The translations under genes were made by a program, and so were the position numbers. A DNA stretch of 12,210 nucleotides, taken from UHGV virus genome UHGV-2091730; one strand, 5' to 3'. Shown here one piece after another: positions 1,251 through 10,791 of this stretch (positions are counted from its first letter, which is position 1; every line of letters begins with the position of its first letter). The stretch is from a virus. The notes below the pieces were generated by a model that was not told the origin of the DNA, ran no database searches, and was given only the letters and a program-made list of their open reading frames with translations.

Positions 1251-1413
1251 GACTCCTCCTTGCTGCCAGTCGCAACCATTTTTTATCAACCAGGCTGGCG
1301 GTATATCCGAGCAGTGTTGGTATTTCGGATGGCTTCAGCTCAGGTTTACGCTTACGACGATTTGGTACTCTGTAGATGTGTCCGTTCATGACACGAATAA
1401 GCGGTGTAGCCAT
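1243..1413 (-). CDS. ninE: NinE family protein (56 aa)
   Basis: [53 protein letters not shown] resembles the NinE basic motif. ATG at 1411-1413 has GGAGG 4 nt upstream and overlaps the upstream stop (TAATG). Confidence 0.7.
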   Translation of the reverse strand: MATPLIRVMNGHIYRVPNRRKRKPELKPSEIPTLLGYTASLVDKKWLRLAARRSHG

Positions 1414-1868
1414 TACGCCTCCTGCTTGTCGCGCAGCAGCTGAAACTCGCAGCTCTGTGGAATAGTCAGGTGGCAACCAATATTCATCGCCCAGGCTTCA
1501 ACCTTACACAGGAAGACATACATCTCTCCGGTATCAAGATCGGAGGTATGGCGTAACGACTGGATAGTGGTGATATCACCGGTTACGACATCAACCAGGT
1601 CTTTGGTTTCATAACCGAGATATGTGTGTTTGAGAGCATCTTTTACCCAAGCTGGAGTGGCGAACGTTTTACCCTTGCTGATGAGGTATTCACTGATTTC
1701 GCTGTACCACATGTGGCTGAGTGCATTCTGGGAAAGACTGCGTCTCTCGCGCCACGGTTTAAGCACCATGCGAAAGCATTTGCCGTCCTCCAGATAAGGT
1801 TGGATCTGCCGACCGATAGCGGTGAAGTTACCGCGATGCAGTTTGATGCCATCTTGTGGGAAGTTCAC
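1413..1868 (-). CDS. ybcN: NinB/YbcN family protein (151 aa)
   Basis: 151 aa with an S-L-S-Q-N...W motif like lambda NinB (SLDQNRKLW). GTG start with GGAGG upstream. Length and position match DLP12 YbcN as recalled. Confidence 0.7.
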
Positions 1869-1987
1869 GCTTCACCTCCGCAGAGATCAAACGCTGGATG
1901 CAAGATATCGCAGGTGCATTTCTGCATCTGTGAAGGGAGAAGAGAGTTTGGATTGTATGTGCGCATAAACGTCCCCGTTTAGCGCAG

Positions 1988-2020
1988 AAGTCACCGGAGG
2001 AGTTCAAACTCCGGTGACTT
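1988..2020. other. Perfect 12-bp inverted repeat (AAGTCACCGGAG / CTCCGGTGACTT) with 9-nt loop; stem-loop at the nin-block/cargo boundary
   Basis: Read directly from the sequence. No U-tract on either side, so not a canonical intrinsic terminator. Confidence 0.6.
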
Positions 2021-2089
2021 AATTATGACAAGTTGATTATTGAAAATCAAAAGTCATTTAAACAATAATGATACCCAGCAAGAGATTTC

Positions 2090-2491
2090 TTATTTTAACT
2101 CATAGATCAGACAGTCAACGATTTCTAAACCATTTACCATAGAATTAGAAACGCGAACTTTACCATCGTTGACTCTAGCAAATCCTTTTAACATTTTATA
2201 AATAAAAGCTGAATCCCCCTTAGCCTCAATTGCTTCTAATGGTATCGGCTTATACTTTTTTGATATGCTATTTCTATTTATCTCACTGATTTTTCTATAT
2301 ATTTCTGCCGGTCCACGTTCTGAGAAGTCACTGATAACTAAAATATATCTCCAAGATAGATCTGGGTAATAAAACCACATTGCAGCATCAATGGTTAAAT
2401 TCTGTAACTTGAGTTTTTTTAATAAAAATTGACCTGAGAATTCCATATCTTTTGTCAACTCTCTGCCGATTACCAGTGTGCTTTTACCCAT
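2090..2491 (-). CDS. Hypothetical protein (133 aa), downstream partner of the HEPN-like gene
   Basis: ATG at 2489-2491 with GGAG 8 nt upstream. Overlaps the upstream gene by 22 nt. About 30-35 percent GC by hand count. No family recognised. Confidence 0.6.
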   Translation of the reverse strand: MGKSTLVIGRELTKDMEFSGQFLLKKLKLQNLTIDAAMWFYYPDLSWRYILVISDFSERGPAEIYRKISEINRNSISKKYKPIPLEAIEAKGDSAFIYKMLKGFARVNDGKVRVSNSMVNGLEIVDCLIYELK

Positions 2492-2886
2492 TTCAAAACT
2501 CCAGAATTTTGGTCACCTACAGCATCAAACAATTGTTCGGCCATAGCTTTACTTATGTTATTGTCGTATCTAAATTGCTCGCTCCAGTCTTTAACGACCG
2601 ACCAGTTAATCTCCAACGAAACATCATTTTTTGCGTCAGCAATCAAAATTTGATGTAAGTTGGCAATTTTGAGAAGTTGCGACAAATCATGAGTATATGA
2701 ATCATTTACGACTTTTTTGTTTGGAAACTCATGTTGTAAAAATGACTTGGCAATACAGGCCTTCAATGCACATTCAACTGCATACCCACAAAGATAATAT
2801 GCACCATGAAAAAAGCCATGATCAAGCAAGCATTTGGCCTCATTAAGCCTAGTGTCAGATAATGCTTCAAGGTCGTTTTTATTCAT
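2470..2886 (-). CDS. HEPN-like domain protein (138 aa), putative toxin/effector of a two-gene module
   Basis: Motif order matches the classical HEPN pattern: GAYYLCGYAVECALKA, then THDL, then FRYD. Weak RBS. AT-rich. The domain call is pattern recognition only. Confidence 0.5.
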   Translation of the reverse strand: MNKNDLEALSDTRLNEAKCLLDHGFFHGAYYLCGYAVECALKACIAKSFLQHEFPNKKVVNDSYTHDLSQLLKIANLHQILIADAKNDVSLEINWSVVKDWSEQFRYDNNISKAMAEQLFDAVGDQNSGVLKWVKAHW

Positions 2887-3304
2887 ACAATTATAACTTG
2901 AATTATCCTAATTTTTATGATTATACCCTTATCAGGTATGATGTAGGAACTGAAAACAATATTGGATATCATTTTCGATATTTCTCTGCAAATTCCAGCC
3001 CACAGGATCTCGGTGTACAATCTGTCGCTGATCGCGCAAATTTAGGGTCAATCACTTCATTTTTTGCATCAAACCCTCACTAACATCGAACGATTATAGT
3101 ACAAGTAGTGTTCTTGACTTCTCATTAAACCGTCAGCATTCAATTAATTACAAAATACTAGCGGCATTTCTCTCCCGCAACTTTATTACAGCCGTTCAGA
3201 ACGTAAATGCGTCAATACTCGAATCAACTGATCATCCTGCCACGACTGAAATCTCAAATAGGCCGTTTCTCAAGTAAGAGATTTTGAATGCATTATTGGC
3301 TACT

Positions 3305-3333
3305 GAAATAAAAAACCCAGCGCCAACTGGGTT
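3305..3333 (-). terminator. Rho-independent terminator for the signal-peptide protein gene
   Basis: On the minus strand, a 7-bp stem (AACCCAG / CTGGGTT) with 6-nt loop followed by TTTTTATTT, about 20 nt past the stop at 3351. Confidence 0.6.
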
Positions 3334-3350
3334 CATATGAAATTTTTTTG

Positions 3351-3845
3351 TCATTTCCAATTGCAAGACTGTGAAATTTTTTCCACAACCTTATCAATCT
3401 CAGACAAGTCAAACTCAACTACTTGCATAGTTGATCCATAAGGTTCAAACCCAAAAATAGCTTTTTTATGCTTAGCCAAGGTCTTTATAAATTGTATTGG
3501 TTGTGGAGCAAATGCAGAATCACCGCCTTCCCCACCACCCCAAACACTCTTGACCGGCTTTCCGCCATCTAACCGCACTGTAATTCTTGGGTTGTCCGAA
3601 CCCATATAATCATTGAATGATAAATAGGCATCTGTTTTGTTATCACTACAACGCAACACCAGTGAAGTTGCACGATCAGTACCTGCTTTGTTATATGAAT
3701 CTGGTGATAAATTAAGAGCCACAAAGTCAGTCTGGTCAGTCATTTTATTTATCTCAGACTTTGTTATCCACGGCCCTAACTTCTCTACACCAGCATTTGC
3801 TGTAAACGAGGCACTTATGACAAAGGCTAAAATAAATTTTCTCAT
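3351..3845 (-). CDS. Secreted/periplasmic protein of unknown function (164 aa) with N-terminal signal peptide
   Basis: N-terminus MRKFILAFVISASFTANA is a Sec signal peptide with no lipobox. AGGAGA 7 nt upstream of the ATG. Own terminator. Two Cys in the mature part. AT-rich. Confidence 0.7.
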   Translation of the reverse strand: MRKFILAFVISASFTANAGVEKLGPWITKSEINKMTDQTDFVALNLSPDSYNKAGTDRATSLVLRCSDNKTDAYLSFNDYMGSDNPRITVRLDGGKPVKSVWGGGEGGDSAFAPQPIQFIKTLAKHKKAIFGFEPYGSTMQVVEFDLSEIDKVVEKISQSCNWK

Positions 3846-3991
3846 AACCCTATCTCCTTGGCTTCAAAGAACTAAATATTATCAAGTCTCTTGCCACTAG
3901 AAAACCCACTTTATTTCCAAACTCTGATGGCATTCCTGAAAATCCGCTTCATACTCACTTGCCCCGCCCTATCATCCTGAGTAGCTAACCG

Positions 3992-4165
3992 TTAAACAAA
4001 CGTTCGCCAGACCTTACCATCAATGACCAGGATTCCTGCACGCGCCATTTTAGCTGCTGCCTGATTTATGCAGGTTACTGTCACACCTGTTGCCGCAGCA
4101 ACGTCCTGCGCACAGAAGCTCTTATGCGTCCCCAGGTAATAAATAATTGCCTCTTTGCCCGTCAT
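3992..4165 (-). CDS. ren: Ren-like protein, apparently short (57 aa) compared with lambda Ren
   Basis: Hand translation MTGKEAIIYYLGTHKSFCAQDVAAATGVTVTCINQAAAKMARAGILVIDGKVWRTFV matches the lambda Ren N-terminus as recalled. ATG overlaps the P stop (ATGA). The ORF ends where the AT-rich cargo begins. Confidence 0.6.
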   Translation of the reverse strand: MTGKEAIIYYLGTHKSFCAQDVAAATGVTVTCINQAAAKMARAGILVIDGKVWRTFV

Positions 4166-4863
4166 ACACTTGCTCCTTTCAGCCCAAACTTAGCTTTGAT
4201 TTCTGCGATCTTCGCCAGAGCCTGTGCACGATTTAGAGGTCTACCGCCCATGACAGGAAGCTGTTTTACTGGTTCAGGTATCGCCTCACCACGGTTAATT
4301 CGCGCGGTCATACAGGACAGTTCATCGGCAGCCTTGCGCCGTAATTCCGCATCAGTAAGCGCATTGGCCCGCATGTTCTGGTACAGGTTGGTAACCAGCC
4401 AGTAATGCGCGTTCGATTTCCACGGATAAGACTCTGCATCCGGATACAGGCCACGCTTCCGGCAATACTCGTAAACCATATCAACCAGCTCGCTGACGTT
4501 TGGCAGCCCGGCGTTAACGGATGCTTCTTCCCGGCACCAGGCGACAAACTGCCCGGGTGATGGCAGGAATGGTCGATTCTGCCGACGGGCTACGCGCATT
4601 CCTGCGTTAACCTGTTCCATTGTGGTGATCCCGTTTTCCCGGAAAGCCAGAACCCACTGGCGGCGGATTTCGTTCAGTTCATTCTGGTCACGGTTAGCCA
4701 GGCTCGCCGGGAAAGTTGCCAGTAACTGGCTGAACACACCGTTGATGATCTGCGCTACCTGCTGTACCTGCGGCTTTTCGTCGTACTGTTCCGGCATGTT
4801 GTTGGCGATCCGACGCATCTGCTCACGGTCAAAGTTAACCATCTGTGCGGCGATGTTTTTCAT
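4162..4863 (-). CDS. P: Replication protein P (DnaB helicase loader), lambda type
   Basis: 233-aa translation MKNIAAQMVNFDREQMRRIANNMPEQYDEK... recognised as lambda P. ATG overlaps the O stop (ATGA). Confidence 0.92.
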   Translation of the reverse strand: MKNIAAQMVNFDREQMRRIANNMPEQYDEKPQVQQVAQIINGVFSQLLATFPASLANRDQNELNEIRRQWVLAFRENGITTMEQVNAGMRVARRQNRPFLPSPGQFVAWCREEASVNAGLPNVSELVDMVYEYCRKRGLYPDAESYPWKSNAHYWLVTNLYQNMRANALTDAELRRKAADELSCMTARINRGEAIPEPVKQLPVMGGRPLNRAQALAKIAEIKAKFGLKGASV

Positions 4864-5354
4864 AAATCCATCCCGTAAATCCAGTCAGTGTTTGTCAGGT
4901 CGAGTTTTGGTTTTCTGGCTGTCACGCCAGCCTGTTGCTTGTTACGGTTGATTTCGAGCTGGGTCCACTTGTCGCGGAGTTTAGCCGGACTCAGCACGTT
5001 ACCGGACCAGAAGTTGTCCTGGCATGCCCAGCGGAACAGCACGCACATGTCGCGGTGGTTACGTCCATCACGTTCACGCATCAGGCGGATATCGTTAGCC
5101 CACCCTGCAAAATTCGGTTTTCTGGCTGATGGCGCGATGGTCTTCACCATGTCAAACATCCACTCTGCGGCGGTCAGGTCTTCTGCTGTCCCCCACTTGC
5201 TGCCGCTCTGAATTGCAGCATCCGATTTCATCACAGGAAGATCGTTTTCTGGCTGGTCAGAGGATTCGTCAGAATTCTCGGACGAAAAAGGTTTTATATT
5301 GTCTTTTGTTAGTTTGTCTTTTGTGTTTACCTGATTCGGGTACCTGGACTGCAT
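4860..5354 (-). pseudogene. O: Replication initiator O, C-terminal fragment only; N-terminal domain and ori iterons absent
   Basis: From LTKDNIKPFSSENSDESSDQPEND onward it matches the lambda O C-terminal half. The first ATG has a TAG two codons upstream and no RBS. The AT-rich ori-proximal segment and GAATTC (5272-5277) are kept, but no iterons. Confidence 0.8.
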
Positions 5355-8040: not shown

Positions 8041-8262
8041 ATGGCAGACATAATTGATTCAGCATCAGAAATTGAAGAATTACAGCGCAACACAGCAATA
8101 AAAATGCGCCGCCTGAACCACCAGGCTATATCTGCCACTCATTGTTGTGAGTGTGGCGATCCGATAGATGAACGAAGACGCCTGGCCGTTCAGGGTTGTC
8201 GGACTTGTGCAAGTTGCCAGGAGGATCTGGAACTTATCAGTAAACAGAGAGGTTCGAAGTGA
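8041..8262 (+). CDS. TraR/DksA-family C4 zinc-finger protein (73 aa)
   Basis: CxxC-x14-CxxC (CCEC ... CRTC) after an acidic/helical N-terminus (MADIIDSASEIEELQRNTAIKMRRLNHQ), typical of phage TraR-like proteins. Confidence 0.7.
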   Translation: MADIIDSASEIEELQRNTAIKMRRLNHQAISATHCCECGDPIDERRRLAVQGCRTCASCQEDLELISKQRGSK

Positions 8263-8414
8263 GCGAAATTAACTAGAAGCCAAAGATAAAATCATCGCTG
8301 AGCAGGAGAAAATCGCTAACGGAGAAAAGACAGTAAGTCAGTATATGAAAACCGCATGATATCATCAGATAAAAATCGATCGTAAAGCGAAATATTCATA
8401 CCAGAATAAACGAG

Positions 8415-8438
8415 TCGAGGTAAATTATATTACCTCGA
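8415..8438 (-). terminator. Possible terminator hairpin downstream of the membrane-protein gene
   Basis: 8-bp inverted repeat TCGAGGTA / TACCTCGA with 8-nt loop, followed on the minus strand by a modestly T-rich stretch. Weak. Confidence 0.3.
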
Positions 8439-8472
8439 TAAATTAACTAAAACTTGCCCGCTATATACTATC

Positions 8473-9075
8473 TCATTCAGTATCATCACGCGCGGTCTGT
8501 GCATATGTCACTACCGCACCTAATGTATTAATTTTCTTTTCAACATAGATAATATTATCGTACTCATAATTGCCATACGGATAGCAAATGCGAATATTCT
8601 CATGTAGATCGGGGTCATCCACCTCAGCTCCAGAACAACTTTTTGAACTACCGGAAGTATACCGATACGGTGCAACATAAGACGATGTCTCTCCAGGCAA
8701 AAAATAAGTTAGTGTTGTAAGGGGTATAATCAGAAAAAATCCAGAAAATATGCATATCCCTGCATAAACCTTAAGGTATGCTGACAGACTCTTCCAGCCG
8801 CTTTGTTTTACTATCCCCTTCTTAACCCAAAACAGAGATAACAGAAAAGCTATTCCCATGCTAAACAGAATGTAATAGTGGGATATACTCTGATTAAGAA
8901 ACGTGACCCTGTAGATATCTGCCCGCCACCAGAAGAAAAGGAAAATAAAGATCAGCCCTGAAACTGTCATGCAAATCAAATAAGGATACGAATCTTTTTT
9001 CATGTTTAGCGCCCATAAAATTTTTCCTGACCCGGACAAATTTACCATCCATTTTTTGCGCAGAAAATAGCTCAT
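8473..9075 (-). CDS. Integral membrane protein of unknown function (200 aa; three predicted TM helices, about 60-aa soluble C-terminal tail)
   Basis: Long ORF on the strand opposite to all flanking phage genes. About 35 percent GC by hand count. Hydrophobic stretches LICMTVSGLIFIFLFFWW, YYILFSMGIAFLLSLFWV, VYAGICIFSGFFLIIPLTTLTYFL. Start uncertain: no strong RBS at any in-frame ATG. Confidence 0.6.
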   Translation of the reverse strand: MSYFLRKKWMVNLSGSGKILWALNMKKDSYPYLICMTVSGLIFIFLFFWWRADIYRVTFLNQSISHYYILFSMGIAFLLSLFWVKKGIVKQSGWKSLSAYLKVYAGICIFSGFFLIIPLTTLTYFLPGETSSYVAPYRYTSGSSKSCSGAEVDDPDLHENIRICYPYGNYEYDNIIYVEKKINTLGAVVTYAQTARDDTE

Positions 9076-9317
9076 TACTTACTGCACAATAATACACAAA
9101 ATTGCGTAAATTTTTTGCATGGATTTTAGCTCTTTCAGCCGACATTTAAGGGGTAAATAGCATTTCCTAAAAGCAACTGCACCAACCCAACAGAATGGGC
9201 TACCGCTTACGTTGAGAGCAAAAAAGTGTATAGCAGCAATGAACAGCATCCTCGCACTGACGAGGATTTCTTTTATCTGAACTCGCTACGGCGGGTTTTG
9301 TTTTATGGAGATGATAA

Positions 9318-9524: not shown

Positions 9525-9743
9525 ATGTACTTGACACTTCAGGAGTGGAACGCACGCCAGCGACGCCCAAGAAGCCTTGAAACAGTTCGTCGATGGGTAC
9601 GCGAGTGCAGGATATTCCCACCTCCGGTTAAGGATGGAAGAGAGTATCTGTTCCACGAATCAGCGGTAAAGGTTGACTTAAATCGACCAGTAACAGGTAG
9701 CCTTTTGAAGAGGATCAGAAATGGGAAGAAGGCGAAGTCATGA
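9525..9743 (+). CDS. xis: Excisionase Xis
   Basis: 72-aa translation MYLTLQEWNARQRRPRSLETVRRWVRECRIFPPPVKDGREYLFHESAVKVDLNRPVTGSLLKRIRNGKKAKS recognised as lambda Xis. 23-nt overlap with int. Confidence 0.95.
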   Translation: MYLTLQEWNARQRRPRSLETVRRWVRECRIFPPPVKDGREYLFHESAVKVDLNRPVTGSLLKRIRNGKKAKS

Positions 9744-10791
9744 GCGCCGGGATTTACCCCCTAACCTTTATATAAGAAACAATGGATATTACTGCTACAG
9801 GGACCCAAGGACGGGTAAAGAGTTTGGATTAGGCAGAGACAGGCGAATCGCAATCACTGAAGCTATACAGGCCAACATTGAGTTATTTTCAGGACACAAA
9901 CACAAGCCTCTGACAGCGAGAATCAACAGTGATAATTCCGTTACGTTACATTCATGGCTTGATCGCTACGAAAAAATCCTGGCCAGCAGAGGAATCAAAC
10001 AGAAGACACTCATAAATTACATGAGCAAAATTAAAGCAATAAGGAGGGGTCTGCCTGATGCTCCACTTGAAGACATCACCACAAAAGAAATTGCGGCAAT
10101 GCTCAATGGATACATAAACGAGGGCAAGGCGGCGTCAGCCAAGTTAATCAGATCAACACTGAGCGATGCATTCCGAGAGGCAATAGCTGAAGGCCATATA
10201 ACAACAAACCCTGTCGCTGCCACTCGCGCAGCAAAATCAGAGGTAAGGAGATCAAGACTTACGGCTGACGAATACCTGAAAATTTATCAAGCAGCAGAAT
10301 CATCACCATGTTGGCTCAGACTTGCAATGGAACTGGCTGTTGTTACCGGGCAACGAGTTGGTGATTTATGCGAAATGAAGTGGTCTGATATCGTAGATGG
10401 ATATCTTTATGTCGAGCAAAGCAAAACAGGCGTAAAAATTGCCATCCCAACAGCATTGCATGTTGATGCTCTCGGAATATCAATGAAGGAAACACTTGAT
10501 AAATGCAAAGAGATTCTTGGCGGAGAAACCATAATTGCATCTACTCGTCGCGAACCGCTTTCATCCGGCACAGTATCAAGGTATTTTATGCGCGCACGAA
10601 AAGCATCAGGTCTTTCCTTCGAAGGGGATCCGCCTACCTTTCACGAGTTGCGCAGTTTGTCTGCAAGACTCTATGAGAAGCAGATAAGCGATAAGTTTGC
10701 TCAACATCTTCTCGGGCATAAGTCGGACACCATGGCATCACAGTATCGTGATGACAGAGGCAGGGAGTGGGACAAAATTGAAATCAAATAA
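9721..10791 (+). CDS. int: Integrase Int (tyrosine recombinase), lambda type
   Basis: 356-aa translation MGRRRSHERRDLPPNLYIRNNGYYCYRDPRTGKEFGLGRDRRIAITEAIQ... recognised as lambda Int. Confidence 0.97.
   Translation: MGRRRSHERRDLPPNLYIRNNGYYCYRDPRTGKEFGLGRDRRIAITEAIQANIELFSGHKHKPLTARINSDNSVTLHSWLDRYEKILASRGIKQKTLINYMSKIKAIRRGLPDAPLEDITTKEIAAMLNGYINEGKAASAKLIRSTLSDAFREAIAEGHITTNPVAATRAAKSEVRRSRLTADEYLKIYQAAESSPCWLRLAMELAVVTGQRVGDLCEMKWSDIVDGYLYVEQSKTGVKIAIPTALHVDALGISMKETLDKCKEILGGETIIASTRREPLSSGTVSRYFMRARKASGLSFEGDPPTFHELRSLSARLYEKQISDKFAQHLLGHKSDTMASQYRDDRGREWDKIEIK

What the first reader, a model, noticed from the sequence alone, without database searches (positions are those of the whole stretch)
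1988..3991. AT-rich cargo island inserted between the replication module and the nin block, apparently at the cost of the ren 3' end
About 2 kb of low-GC DNA separates the ren-like ORF (only 57 aa here, versus 96 aa for lambda Ren as I recall) from the ninB/ybcN-like gene. One edge carries a perfect 12-bp hairpin (1988-2020). In DLP12, as I recall, the same slot after a ren remnant carries unrelated cargo (emrE, ybcK/L/M). This suggests a recurrent lambdoid cargo hotspot with a new payload here.
Basis: partly seen in the sequence, partly recalled or inferred. Interest (0 to 1): 0.55.

Follow-up and report, generated by a model that had tools for sequence, protein, structure and literature searches.

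The report
Swappable cargo slot in lambdoid prophage
The AT-rich 2 kb between the phage replication genes and the nin genes is an ordinary lambdoid swap slot; here it holds two separately mobile cassettes, one of them a very widespread, uncharacterised HEPN two-gene module worth testing as a toxin-antitoxin or anti-phage system.

Summary
Window 2064-3920 has 36.5% GC against about 50% in the flanks. The ren ORF is 57 aa, against 96 aa in lambda. A perfect 12-bp hairpin sits at 1988-2020. DLP12 carries emrE/ybcK/L/M in the same slot.

This is not one insertion. It is two cassettes with separate distributions:
- a secreted VasI/IalB-like gene with its own terminator (3273-3896);
- a HEPN + 133-aa overlapping gene pair (2064-3185).

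An 86-bp remnant of an rha-type gene joins them.

ren was not cut by the insertion. Its DNA runs on to about 3897 as a decayed allele with a stop at codon 58 and a frameshift. That allele is always linked to the VasI-like cassette.

The hairpin lies inside the conserved ylcH/ybcN leader, not in the cargo. The invariant stretch beside it is a demonstrated crossover point for cassette gain or loss.

Among 67 viral contigs with near-identical P, the slot has 29 length classes (364-6,519 bp). It carries SNIPE/PD-lambda-1, AbiL, PRTase-CE/NADAR and the DLP12 cargo.

The payload is not new: the cassettes occur in 190 and 84 of 5,426 complete E. coli genomes. The HEPN pair is strictly conserved across phyla (80/80 loci), and its partner has no Pfam, PADLOC or PDB relative by sequence.

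The parts
1413..1868 (-). ybcN (NinB-type) gene; the conserved right anchor of the slot
   Evidence: PGAP names it 'DNA base-flipping protein YbcN' in the 99.9%-identical strain 10. Weak Pfam NinB match. It is 92-99% identical in all ybcN-type loci.
1869..2063 (-). Conserved linker, about 195 bp. It contains the ylcH-like 33-aa ORF (1865-1966), a second hairpin over its start codon, the 12-bp hairpin, and 30-43 bp beyond it. The variable DNA begins at its outer end.
   Evidence: Present upstream of ybcN in every ybcN-type locus; homology begins at element positions 1-14. A second, internal copy always ends at window-equivalent 1889 and occurs in O157-type, L070, L084, PhiR26_1 and IdasGreatGrand. 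Chimeric single copies in L056 and L048 show crossover inside it.
1988..2020 (-). Perfect 12-bp stem with a 9-nt loop, with no U-tract after it on either strand
   Evidence: Across 26 distinct copies, 84.9% of cells are paired. One pair alternates C-G (11 copies) with U.G (15 copies), which only pairs on the minus (sense) strand. Three pairs change on both sides. The terminator scan did not call it, and there is no Rfam hit.
2064..3185 (-). Cassette A: the HEPN two-gene module plus about 300 bp of upstream non-coding DNA
   Evidence: Found as a unit at 99% identity or more, single copy, in 190 of 5,426 complete E. coli genomes. Shared with O157:H7 and GF47 prophages that lack the VasI-like gene.
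2470..2886 (-). HEPN-domain protein, 138 aa
   Evidence: Pfam HEPN PF05168, 27.8 bits against a cutoff of 22. phrog_5737. PADLOC candidate PDC-M28A, E = 1.8e-7. 438 clusters of homologues in many phyla. Invariant residues are R13, E38, K42, H66, N94, W95, W101, R106 and Y107; no His lies 4-6 residues after R106.
2090..2491 (-). Partner protein, 133 aa, overlapping the HEPN gene by 22 bp
3186..3271 (-). Remnant of the last 28 codons and stop of an rha / P22AR-C-terminal-domain gene; the internal joint between the two cassettes
   Evidence: tblastn of the GF47 P22AR-domain protein matches residues 176-203 to window 3269-3186, 71% identity, E = 9e-9. O157-type homology ends at 3271, IdasGreatGrand/L023 homology starts at 3268-3273, and L060/L082 homology runs down to 3193-3201.
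3273..3896 (-). Cassette B: VasI/TagO-like secreted protein gene (3351-3845) with its own intrinsic terminator (3334-3313)
3897..4165 (-). ren pseudogene: an intact 57-aa ORF (3992-4165) followed by a decayed 3' part (3897-3991)
   Evidence: Alignment with lambda, PhiR26_1, PhiR30_1 and IdasGreatGrand ren. PGAP note 'frameshifted; internal stop'. phrog_7054 is a 57-aa family.
4162..4863 (-). Replication gene P; the conserved left anchor of the slot
   Evidence: Pfam Phage_lambda_P, E = 8e-62. 98-100% identical in the 80 IMG/VR loci.

Best explanation
Window 1988-3991 is the accessory slot that lies between the replication genes (P-ren) and the ylcH-ybcN/nin genes in lambda/DLP12-type prophages. 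Transcription from pR runs right to left on the minus strand.

Here the slot holds a mosaic of two independently circulating cassettes.
- Cassette B (3273-3896) is a moron-like unit. It encodes a Sec-exported beta-sandwich protein of the VasI/IalB type and ends in its own intrinsic terminator. It always travels with a decayed ren allele.
- Cassette A (2064-3185) is a translationally coupled two-gene operon. A HEPN-domain protein is followed, with a 22-bp overlap, by a 133-aa protein of a family that has no Pfam model.

The two are joined through an 86-bp remnant of the 3' end of an rha-type gene.

Shown by comparison: cassettes are exchanged, stacked and lost by recombination in short conserved linkers. 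These are the 5' two-thirds of ren, the 3' end of rha, and the roughly 195-bp ylcH leader that contains the hairpin. Two short/long architecture pairs have chimeric linker copies whose crossover lies in the invariant 29 bp next to the hairpin.

Inferred, not shown: the HEPN pair works like a HEPN-MNT-type toxin-antitoxin or abortive-infection module, with HEPN as the effector and the partner as its neutraliser. It would be carried as lysogen-protecting cargo, as are the validated defence systems found in the same slot of sister phages. The VasI-like protein would be an envelope-located lysogenic-conversion or exclusion factor.
For: Mosaic structure and breakpoints.

Independent distributions. 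Cassette A occurs in 190 genomes, cassette B in 84, and the whole arrangement in 8 of 5,426. A occurs without B in O157:H7 and GF47 prophages. B occurs without A in IdasGreatGrand, L060 and L082.

Hotspot. There are 29 slot length classes among 67 loci whose P is at least 98% identical. The same slot holds:
- PD-lambda-1 in PhiR26_1, renamed SNIPE in PMC13190303;
- AbiLi/AbiLii, E = 1.8e-83 and 8.7e-21;
- PRTase-CE plus NADAR;
- a HEC-07-like protein;
- acyltransferase plus lipoprotein in PhiR30_1;
- emrE/ybcK/L/M in DLP12.

Recombination mechanism. The single linker of L056 and of L048 matches the internal copy of the longer L070 and L084 at its 5' side. It matches their primary copy at its 3' side. 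The switch falls in TGCGCTAAACGGGGACGTTTATGCGCACA.

The HEPN pair is a conserved module.
- The same 138-aa + 133/134-aa overlapping pair occurs in Klebsiella and Citrobacter lambdoid prophages in the equivalent slot, and at Acinetobacter prophage ends.
- It occurs in chromosomes of Bacteroidota and Woeseiaceae. The partners there are homologous (hhalign 98.7%, E = 1.6e-16).
- The partner lies directly downstream in 80/80 GTDB loci from many phyla, usually overlapping.
- Only the two ORFs plus about 45 bp upstream are conserved between E. coli and Klebsiella copies.
- The partner's best structural neighbours are MNT-type minimal nucleotidyltransferases, and the MNT antitoxin 5yep is in the list.

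VasI-like gene as a moron. It has low GC and its own terminator. Homologues at 54-60% identity sit in a different slot, in the tail module, of Klebsiella and Pantoea prophages.
Against: No function was tested.

The HEPN family lacks the canonical Rx4-6H motif. R106 is invariant, but no His follows it, so RNase activity is uncertain.

The PADLOC hit is only to a candidate family, at 29.7 bits, and the partner has no PADLOC hit.

The gene order, HEPN first, is the reverse of what I recall as usual for MNT-HEPN pairs.

No convincing sigma-70 promoter was found in front of either cassette, so expression in the lysogen is not established.

Many chromosomal copies sit among housekeeping genes rather than in defence islands.

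The comparisons cannot tell whether the chimeric linkers reflect loss or gain of cassettes.
Confidence: 0.75

Rival explanations
1. One reading: a single 2-kb AT-rich island inserted once between ren and ninB. It deleted the 3' end of ren, and the hairpin is the insertion scar or attachment site.
For: The block has uniformly low GC. The ren ORF is short. The hairpin lies within about 45 bp of the point where homology to other phages ends.
Against: The block splits at 3271/3273 into parts with different distributions. ren-homologous DNA continues about 95-70 bp past the stop codon, and the stop is a point substitution. The hairpin and linker are present with every cargo type, including DLP12. 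No direct or inverted repeats flank the block.
Confidence: 0.04
2. The AT-rich genes are conserved core genes of this phage lineage, and the 57-aa Ren is simply its natural form.
For: A 57-aa Ren family exists (phrog_7054). The viable phage IdasGreatGrand carries the same ren57 + VasI-like arrangement.
Against: Among loci with P at least 98% identical, only 8 of 80 carry ren57 + VasI-like. Only 6 carry the HEPN pair, and only 1 carries both. 13 loci have the lambda arrangement with 73 bp between ren and ninB. DNA after codon 58 is still recognisably ren, with a frameshift.
Confidence: 0.02
3. Cassettes move by site-specific recombination at the hairpin (integron-attC-like, or driven by a recombinase such as YbcK), not by general homologous recombination.
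For: The structure is conserved on one strand, with G.U-tolerant changes. The right-hand junction is sharp at window 2050-2063 in all architectures. A large serine recombinase (ybcK) is itself one of the cargoes.
Against: The crossovers seen in L056 and L048 lie anywhere within an invariant stretch of about 30-40 bp beside, not in, the hairpin. That is what homologous exchange gives. Left junctions scatter over +245 to +296. Most architectures, including this window, encode no recombinase in the slot. The internal linker copies are 79-88% identical over 138-175 bp, which is more homology than a site-specific system needs.
Confidence: 0.06
4. The HEPN pair is neither a toxin-antitoxin nor a defence module. 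It could be a two-subunit nucleotide-binding or RNA-metabolism factor, or an anti-defence gene, that simply hitch-hikes in phages.
For: The canonical HEPN catalytic His is absent. The partner lacks nucleotidyltransferase catalytic residues. Chromosomal copies lie between housekeeping genes. No validated defence family matches.
Against: The locus shows strict two-gene linkage with overlapping ORFs across phyla. Distribution in E. coli is patchy and single-copy at 99% identity or more, which indicates recent horizontal spread. One copy sits next to PIN, HicB and Fic genes. In phages it occupies positions that otherwise hold SNIPE, AbiL and PRTase systems. Several alternative cassettes at the same position carry RNxxxH HEPN-like motifs (sequences, read by eye).
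Confidence: 0.3

Closest known systems
DLP12 cryptic prophage of E. coli K-12, renD-to-ylcH interval (emrE, ylcJ, ybcK, ybcL, ybcM)
   Same: The flanks are the same: a P remnant and ren on one side, ylcH-ybcN-ninE-ybcO-rusA-ylcG-quuD on the other. The linker with the hairpin is the same. The DLP12 cargo also occurs in 16 of the surveyed viral contigs.
   Different: The payload is entirely different. In DLP12 ren is full length but split by IS3, whereas here it carries a nonsense and a frameshift mutation.
Lambdoid morons and mosaic 'boundary/linker' sequences (Juhala et al. 2000; Clark et al. 2001; recalled from my own knowledge, not re-read here)
   Same: Genes of deviant GC content sit between conserved neighbours, and one has its own terminator. 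Exchange occurs at short conserved sequences at module boundaries.
   Different: A promoter for either cassette was not established. The linker here is repeated inside some slots, so cassettes stack in tandem.
[quoted passage not shown]
   Same: A fixed position between conserved phage genes holds many alternative, mostly uncharacterised, small systems, including validated defence genes.
   Different: The phage family and the position differ (the early-right operon, between replication and nin genes). I found no accessible paper that names this lambdoid slot. Brenes & Laub 2025 (Cell Host Microbe, pmid 40409266) may cover it but could not be read.
HEPN-MNT toxin-antitoxin systems (for example Shewanella SO_3166/SO_3165, PDB 5yep; archaeal MNTs 1ylq and 2rff)
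   Same: A small HEPN protein is encoded next to a small alpha/beta protein whose best structural neighbours are MNTs. The ORFs overlap. The distribution is wide and patchy.
   Different: There is no Rx4-6H(xY) motif. The partner has no GS/DxD nucleotidyltransferase motif and no Pfam NTP_transf match. The gene order is HEPN first.
SNIPE / PD-lambda-1 (PMC13190303)
   Same: It occupies the same ren-ylcH slot in phage PhiR26_1 and in four surveyed contigs.
   Different: It is an unrelated 500-aa membrane nuclease encoded on the opposite strand, and it is absent from this window.
VasI/TagO (PF11319) and Bartonella IalB (PDB 3dtd)
   Different: It is encoded in prophages, in this slot or in tail modules, and not in a type VI secretion cluster. 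No function is known for this subfamily.

Membership tests
Lambdoid accessory ('moron') cargo in a variable slot | Present or absent between otherwise near-identical neighbouring genes | tested here: met
   Among loci with P at least 98% identical, the slot has 29 length classes. Each cassette occurs without the other.
Lambdoid accessory ('moron') cargo in a variable slot | Base composition deviates from the surrounding phage genes | tested here: met
   GC 36.5% against about 50%; GC3 0.30-0.35 against 0.58-0.60.
Lambdoid accessory ('moron') cargo in a variable slot | Own terminator | tested here: met
   An intrinsic terminator lies at 3334-3313 (-), 17 nt after the VasI-like stop. None was found after the HEPN pair.
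Lambdoid accessory ('moron') cargo in a variable slot | Own promoter, with expression from the repressed prophage | tested here: inconclusive
   The consensus scan found no site at 9/12 or better upstream of either cassette on the minus strand. TATAAT-like hexamers are visible upstream of the HEPN gene. There are no expression data.
HEPN-MNT type toxin-antitoxin | HEPN domain in one component | tested here: met
   PF05168, 27.8 bits against a cutoff of 22.
HEPN-MNT type toxin-antitoxin | Catalytic Rx4-6H motif in the HEPN protein | tested here: not met
   R106 is invariant, but no His follows within 4-6 residues. The other invariant His (H66) is not preceded by Arg.
HEPN-MNT type toxin-antitoxin | Partner is a minimal nucleotidyltransferase (fold and GS...DxD motif) | tested here: not met
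HEPN-MNT type toxin-antitoxin | Tightly linked two-gene operon | tested here: met
   22-bp overlap here. The partner is directly downstream in 80/80 GTDB loci.
HEPN-MNT type toxin-antitoxin | Toxicity of one component, neutralised by the other | not testable with these tools
   Needs expression experiments.
PADLOC candidate system PDC-M28 | Match to its component models | tested here: inconclusive
   The HEPN protein hits PDC-M28A at 29.7 bits, and 23/23 family members hit it (best E = 7.5e-12). The partner family has no meaningful PADLOC hit. The composition of PDC-M28 could not be looked up.
Type VI secretion-associated TagO/VasI | PF11319 domain | tested here: met
   26.7 bits against a cutoff of 26.5, which is marginal. 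Most homologues carry a precomputed PF11319 hit.
Type VI secretion-associated TagO/VasI | Encoded in a type VI secretion gene cluster | tested here: not met
   The neighbours are phage replication/nin genes here, and tail genes in Klebsiella and Pantoea.
Functional Ren (lambda Rex-exclusion escape protein) | Full-length ORF of about 96 aa | tested here: not met
   Stop at codon 58 and a 1-bp deletion downstream. PGAP marks it as a pseudogene.
Intrinsic terminator (lambda tR2 analogue) for the 1988-2020 hairpin | GC-rich stem followed by a U-tract | tested here: not met
   The stem is present, but the minus strand continues CUGCGCUAAACGG. The scan did not call it. Lambda's own tR2-like hairpin + T-run is visible after ren.
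Site-specific cassette system (integron-like) | Recombinase plus a structured recombination site at each cassette end | tested here: not met
   There is no recombinase in this slot. The left junctions are scattered. The crossovers are consistent with homologous exchange.

The most novel reading that the evidence does not exclude
The HEPN (138 aa) + partner (about 130 aa) pair is a previously undescribed toxin-antitoxin or abortive-infection family that spans many phyla. At least 591 GTDB species genomes encode a relative of the HEPN protein. Its neutralising subunit would be a catalytically inert, nucleotidyltransferase-like protein, and its HEPN subunit would use a non-canonical active site. 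Lambdoid, Klebsiella and Acinetobacter prophages would carry it as anti-phage cargo in a hotspot whose cassettes are shuffled through a hairpin-bearing linker.
Probability: 0.35. Interest if true: 0.6.

Novelty: new member of a known kind. Interest (0 to 1): 0.4.

Why it matters
The slot itself is ordinary lambdoid mosaicism, so it does not change how these phages are understood. Two things are useful.

First, the survey gives a concrete, anchor-defined place to look for small defence and conversion genes in very common E. coli prophages. The anchors are the P/ren 5' part on one side and the ylcH leader on the other. Several validated systems (SNIPE, AbiL) sit there next to many unknowns. The survey also shows the linker at which cassettes are gained and lost.

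Second, one of the unknowns is a two-gene module with perfect linkage across bacterial phyla, and its second protein has no family assignment. That makes a cheap, well-defined candidate for a toxicity and phage-challenge test.

Tried and rejected
- Rfam scan of the whole window at E up to 1: no hit, so the hairpin is not a described RNA family.
- Terminator reading of the hairpin: rejected, because there is no U-tract.
- Repeats flanking the island (target-site duplications or terminal inverted repeats): only short two-copy matches that look like chance.
- Sequence searches of the PDB with the VasI-like protein and with the HEPN and partner profiles: nothing significant.
- NCBIfam: no family for any cargo ORF.
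- Pfam scan of 42 partner relatives: none hits any family.
- PADLOC scan of the same 42: two isolated single-member matches near the cutoff (MTase_II E = 0.0014; PDC-M54A E = 0.0092), which I treat as chance.
The HEPN alignment was used instead.
- The AFDB Foldseek library was unavailable.
- Literature. I found no accessible paper that describes this lambdoid slot as a hotspot. There was no hit for PDC-M28. Brenes & Laub 2025, the likely source of the PhiR phages, is not held. The Genome Research lambdoid paper does not discuss ren or this slot.
- I considered that the internal linker copies mark a general cassette-array design. They are always followed by rha, so they are better read as the left end of one rha-containing module that happens to provide homology.
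Full report
**What the window is.** The window is a lambdoid prophage read against its early-right operon. The integrase (9721-10791, +) abuts ybhC (10927 onward). Gam, bet and exo are on the plus strand. Q/quuD, ylcG, rusA, ybcO, ninE, ybcN, ren, P and the C-terminal part of O are on the minus strand. E. coli strain 10 (NZ_CP048330) is 99.9% identical over 1301-5000 without gaps, which gives a PGAP annotation that can be transferred by a fixed offset.

**Checking the observation.** All four facts are there.
- Window 2064-3920 is 36.5% GC, against 49.8% to its left and 51.2% to its right. GC3 of the three cargo ORFs is 0.30-0.35, against 0.58-0.60 for P, ybcN and rusA.
- The ren-like ORF at 3992-4165 is 57 aa. 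Lambda Ren is 96 aa.
- The hairpin AAGTCACCGGAG-N9-CTCCGGTGACTT is at 1988-2020. Simulated windows of the same dinucleotide make-up contain 0.017 such hairpins on average. The minus-strand RNA fold has z = -6.25.

**Breakpoints.** BLAST of 1301-5000 against lambda, three isolated phages and two other E. coli prophages shows that the block is not one piece.
- Homology to every ybcN-type nin region runs from the left up to 2053-2063, which is past the hairpin.
- Lambda, PhiR26_1 and PhiR30_1 match from 3921 rightwards. In lambda coordinates this reaches 40525, 45 bp short of the ren stop at 40570.
- O157:H7 and GF47 prophages match 1301-3271 and then again from 4152. They carry the HEPN pair but neither ren nor the VasI-like gene.
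- Phage IdasGreatGrand matches 3273-5000. It carries ren57 and the VasI-like gene but not the HEPN pair.
- The joint at 3271/3273 lies inside a remnant of the last 28 codons of an rha / P22AR-C-terminal-domain gene (3186-3269; 71% amino-acid identity including the stop).
- Viral contigs L060 and L082 carry the VasI-like cassette plus this remnant down to 3193-3201, then different right-hand cassettes.

So the region consists of cassette B (3273-3896), the rha remnant, cassette A (2064-3185), and the conserved ylcH leader.

**ren.** In the alignment with four other ren genes, the window and IdasGreatGrand share an allele.
- It is over 93% identical to lambda through about codon 56.
- It then changes TAC to TAA at codon 58.
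- After that it is about 70% identical, with a 1-bp deletion, until similarity fades at about 3900.

PGAP annotates 3897-4165 as 'protein ren, frameshifted; internal stop'. The insertion therefore did not cut ren at codon 57.

However, in the survey every locus with the VasI-like gene has this allele (8 of 8, the gene always starting 320 nt after P). All listed E. coli hits to cassette B overlap a 'protein ren' feature. The decayed ren 3' half and the VasI-like gene are one inherited unit.

More generally, the point where different architectures stop being alignable lies 245-296 nt after the P stop, which is in the last 45 or so nt of ren.

**Is the slot a hotspot?** I fetched 80 IMG/VR loci whose P protein is 98-100% identical to the window's. 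In each I located P, ren and the first NinB/YbcN-type gene.
- 67 loci contain the whole interval.
- Its length falls into 29 classes from 364 bp (lambda arrangement, 13 loci) to 6,519 bp.
- Greedy ORF clustering gives roughly 30 architectures.

The cargo found includes:
- the DLP12 set (emrE + ybcK in 16 loci; ybcL + ybcM in 6);
- the 500-aa PD-lambda-1 protein, annotated in PhiR26_1 and renamed SNIPE in PMC13190303;
- AbiLi/AbiLii (E = 1.8e-83 and 8.7e-21);
- PRTase-CE with a NADAR protein;
- a HEC-07-like protein and an HD-domain protein;
- a DUF4145 protein;
- an acyltransferase + lipoprotein pair in PhiR30_1;
- many ORFs without any family.

The combinations are modular. The same left cassette occurs with different right cassettes and the reverse. 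The hotspot reading is therefore well supported, and the 'core gene' alternative fails.

**The linker and the hairpin.** All ybcN-type loci have the same 182-195 bp in front of ybcN. Homology starts at element positions 1-14, which correspond to window 2050-2063. This element contains the 33-aa ylcH-like ORF, a second hairpin that includes its start codon, and the 12-bp hairpin.

Some slots contain a second, more divergent copy (79-88% identical), always ending at the equivalent of window 1889 and always followed by rha.

Two pairs of architectures are informative. L070 equals L056 plus [internal copy-rha-169-aa gene], and L084 equals L048 plus the same. Aligned, the single linker of the short form matches the internal copy of the long form on its 5' side, including the hairpin. 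It matches the primary copy on its 3' side. The switch falls inside the invariant TGCGCTAAACGGGGACGTTTATGCGCACA. This is the signature of homologous exchange between the two linker copies, seen twice with different left cassettes. It is the one mechanistic step that is shown rather than inferred, although the direction (loss or gain) is not determined.

**The hairpin as a structure.** In 26 distinct copies, 84.9% of cells pair.
- The 3' arm (sense strand) is almost constant.
- The 5' arm varies mainly by C to U, giving G.U pairs that work only on the minus (sense) strand.
- Three pairs change on both sides, mostly in one divergent lineage.

It has no U-tract and no Rfam match. I leave its role open; it could act in the ylcH leader RNA or be a protein-binding palindrome. 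It is a feature of the fixed flank and not of the cargo.

**Cassette A, the HEPN pair.**

*Family matches.* The 138-aa protein passes Pfam's HEPN threshold. The 133-aa protein overlaps it by 22 bp and has no Pfam, NCBIfam or PADLOC family.

*Where the pair occurs.*
- The partner's close relatives are few, in Enterobacteriaceae and Acinetobacter.
- In all of those the same two genes occur together with the same overlap. In Klebsiella and Citrobacter lambdoid prophages the pair lies between the replication and nin/Q genes, even where the replication genes are of a different type. In Acinetobacter prophages it lies next to the lysis genes and the integrase.
- Only the two ORFs and about 45 bp upstream are alignable between E. 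coli and Klebsiella.

*How broad the families are.*
- The HEPN protein has 438 clusters of homologues at about 50% identity in many phyla.
- In three distant genomes it is followed by an overlapping 129-154-aa ORF that is homologous to the partner (hhalign 98.7%, E = 1.6e-16).
- A profile search finds 773 representative partner relatives.
All 80 retained loci have the partner immediately downstream on the same strand, usually overlapping.

*What counts against simple membership.*
- The HEPN family has an invariant R106 but no His 4-6 residues later.
- The partner's conserved residues include no nucleotidyltransferase acidic motif.
- No partner relative hits Pfam.

I therefore say it works like a HEPN-MNT-type module. 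That rests on tight linkage, translational coupling, patchy horizontal spread and position in a defence-rich slot. I do not file it as a member.

*Occurrence.* In E. coli the cassette occurs once per genome in 190 of 5,426 complete genomes, always at 99% identity or more. Among 50,697 phage records it occurs only in one Klebsiella phage, at 65%.

**Cassette B, the VasI-like gene.**
- The 164-aa protein has an N-terminal signal-peptide-like sequence. It has a marginal VasI match, 26.7 bits against a cutoff of 26.5.
- An intrinsic terminator lies 17 nt after its stop.
- Homologues at 54-60% identity in Klebsiella and Pantoea lie in prophage tail modules, between a DUF6246 gene and the tape-measure gene. 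None of the loci I looked at lies in a type VI secretion cluster.

This is the pattern of a moron that moves between phage slots. A role at the envelope, in exclusion or lysogenic conversion, is inference only.

**Comparison with what is known, and novelty.** Variable accessory DNA at this position, and exchange at short conserved boundary sequences, are standard features of lambdoid mosaicism (my own knowledge of Juhala et al. 2000 and Clark et al. 2001). DLP12 is the textbook instance. Defence hotspots are well described for P2 and P4 (PMC9122126, PMC9519451). I could not find an accessible description of this lambdoid slot, and the paper most likely to contain one could not be read.

Both cassettes are already in databases, so the payload is not new. 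What remains open and testable is the function of the HEPN pair.

**Verdict.** This is a new member of a known kind. Interest is 0.4. The main value lies in the anchor-defined hotspot, the demonstrated linker crossover, and a clean candidate two-gene system.

Noticed in passing
window 5339-5342: Compared with strain 10 the window lacks 2,840 bp (L001 12944-15783), with a 4-bp overlap at the joint. The deletion removes the N-terminal two-thirds of O (where lambda's origin iterons lie), the cII-like gene, the cro-like gene, the cI-like S24 repressor and part of kil. This prophage therefore has no immunity region. None of 5,426 complete E. coli genomes carries this junction.
   Followed up: yes
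window 8263-9300: There is a second AT-rich stretch (38.5% GC) between the TraR/DksA-like gene (8041-8262) and xis/int. It holds a 200-aa multi-pass membrane ORF on the minus strand (8473-9075; the C-terminal part matches phrog_1416). Related prophages stop being alignable at 8236-8274 or at 9298, and strain 10 has different genes there. It looks like another cargo slot.
   Followed up: partly
window 1865-1990: The 33-aa ylcH-like ORF overlaps the ybcN start by 4 nt. Its own start codon lies inside a second predicted hairpin (UGCGCUAAACGGGGACGUUUAUGCGCA), directly after the 12-bp hairpin. This could couple RNA structure to translation of ylcH and ybcN.
   Followed up: no
window 2022-2050 (minus strand): A promoter-like site, TTGATT-17-CATAAT with a TG before the -10, lies just upstream (in the sense direction) of the hairpin. 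A transcript starting there would begin inside the hairpin's 5' arm, which would fit an operator-like role for the palindrome. The -35 part lies at the edge of the variable DNA.
   Followed up: no
IMG/VR loci L055, L036 and L075 (cassettes next to the ylcH linker; sequences): Three other right-hand cassettes at exactly the position of the HEPN pair encode proteins with canonical RNxxxH motifs: 160 aa with IRNNLFHG, 174 aa with LRNNLFHG, and 210 aa with IRNKYAHK. None has a Pfam or PADLOC hit. HEPN-like effectors seem to recur at this spot.
   Followed up: no
L006 / L007 4648-4995 (O157:H7 and GF47 prophages): In these prophages ren is absent altogether. An opposite-strand 115-aa ORF of unknown function and a truncated copy of the ylcH linker lie between P and rha.
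   Followed up: no
L104-L108 (Klebsiella and Pantoea prophages): The interval between the DUF6246 gene and the tape-measure gene also varies between the loci shown. KilA-N, DUF2335 and VasI-like genes come and go, so it may be a further accessory slot in those phages.
   Followed up: no
L021 (Woeseiaceae contig), around 3001-3800: The chromosomal HEPN pair there sits among PIN, HicB, Fic and PSK_trans_fac genes, which is a cluster of toxin-antitoxin-type modules.
   Followed up: no
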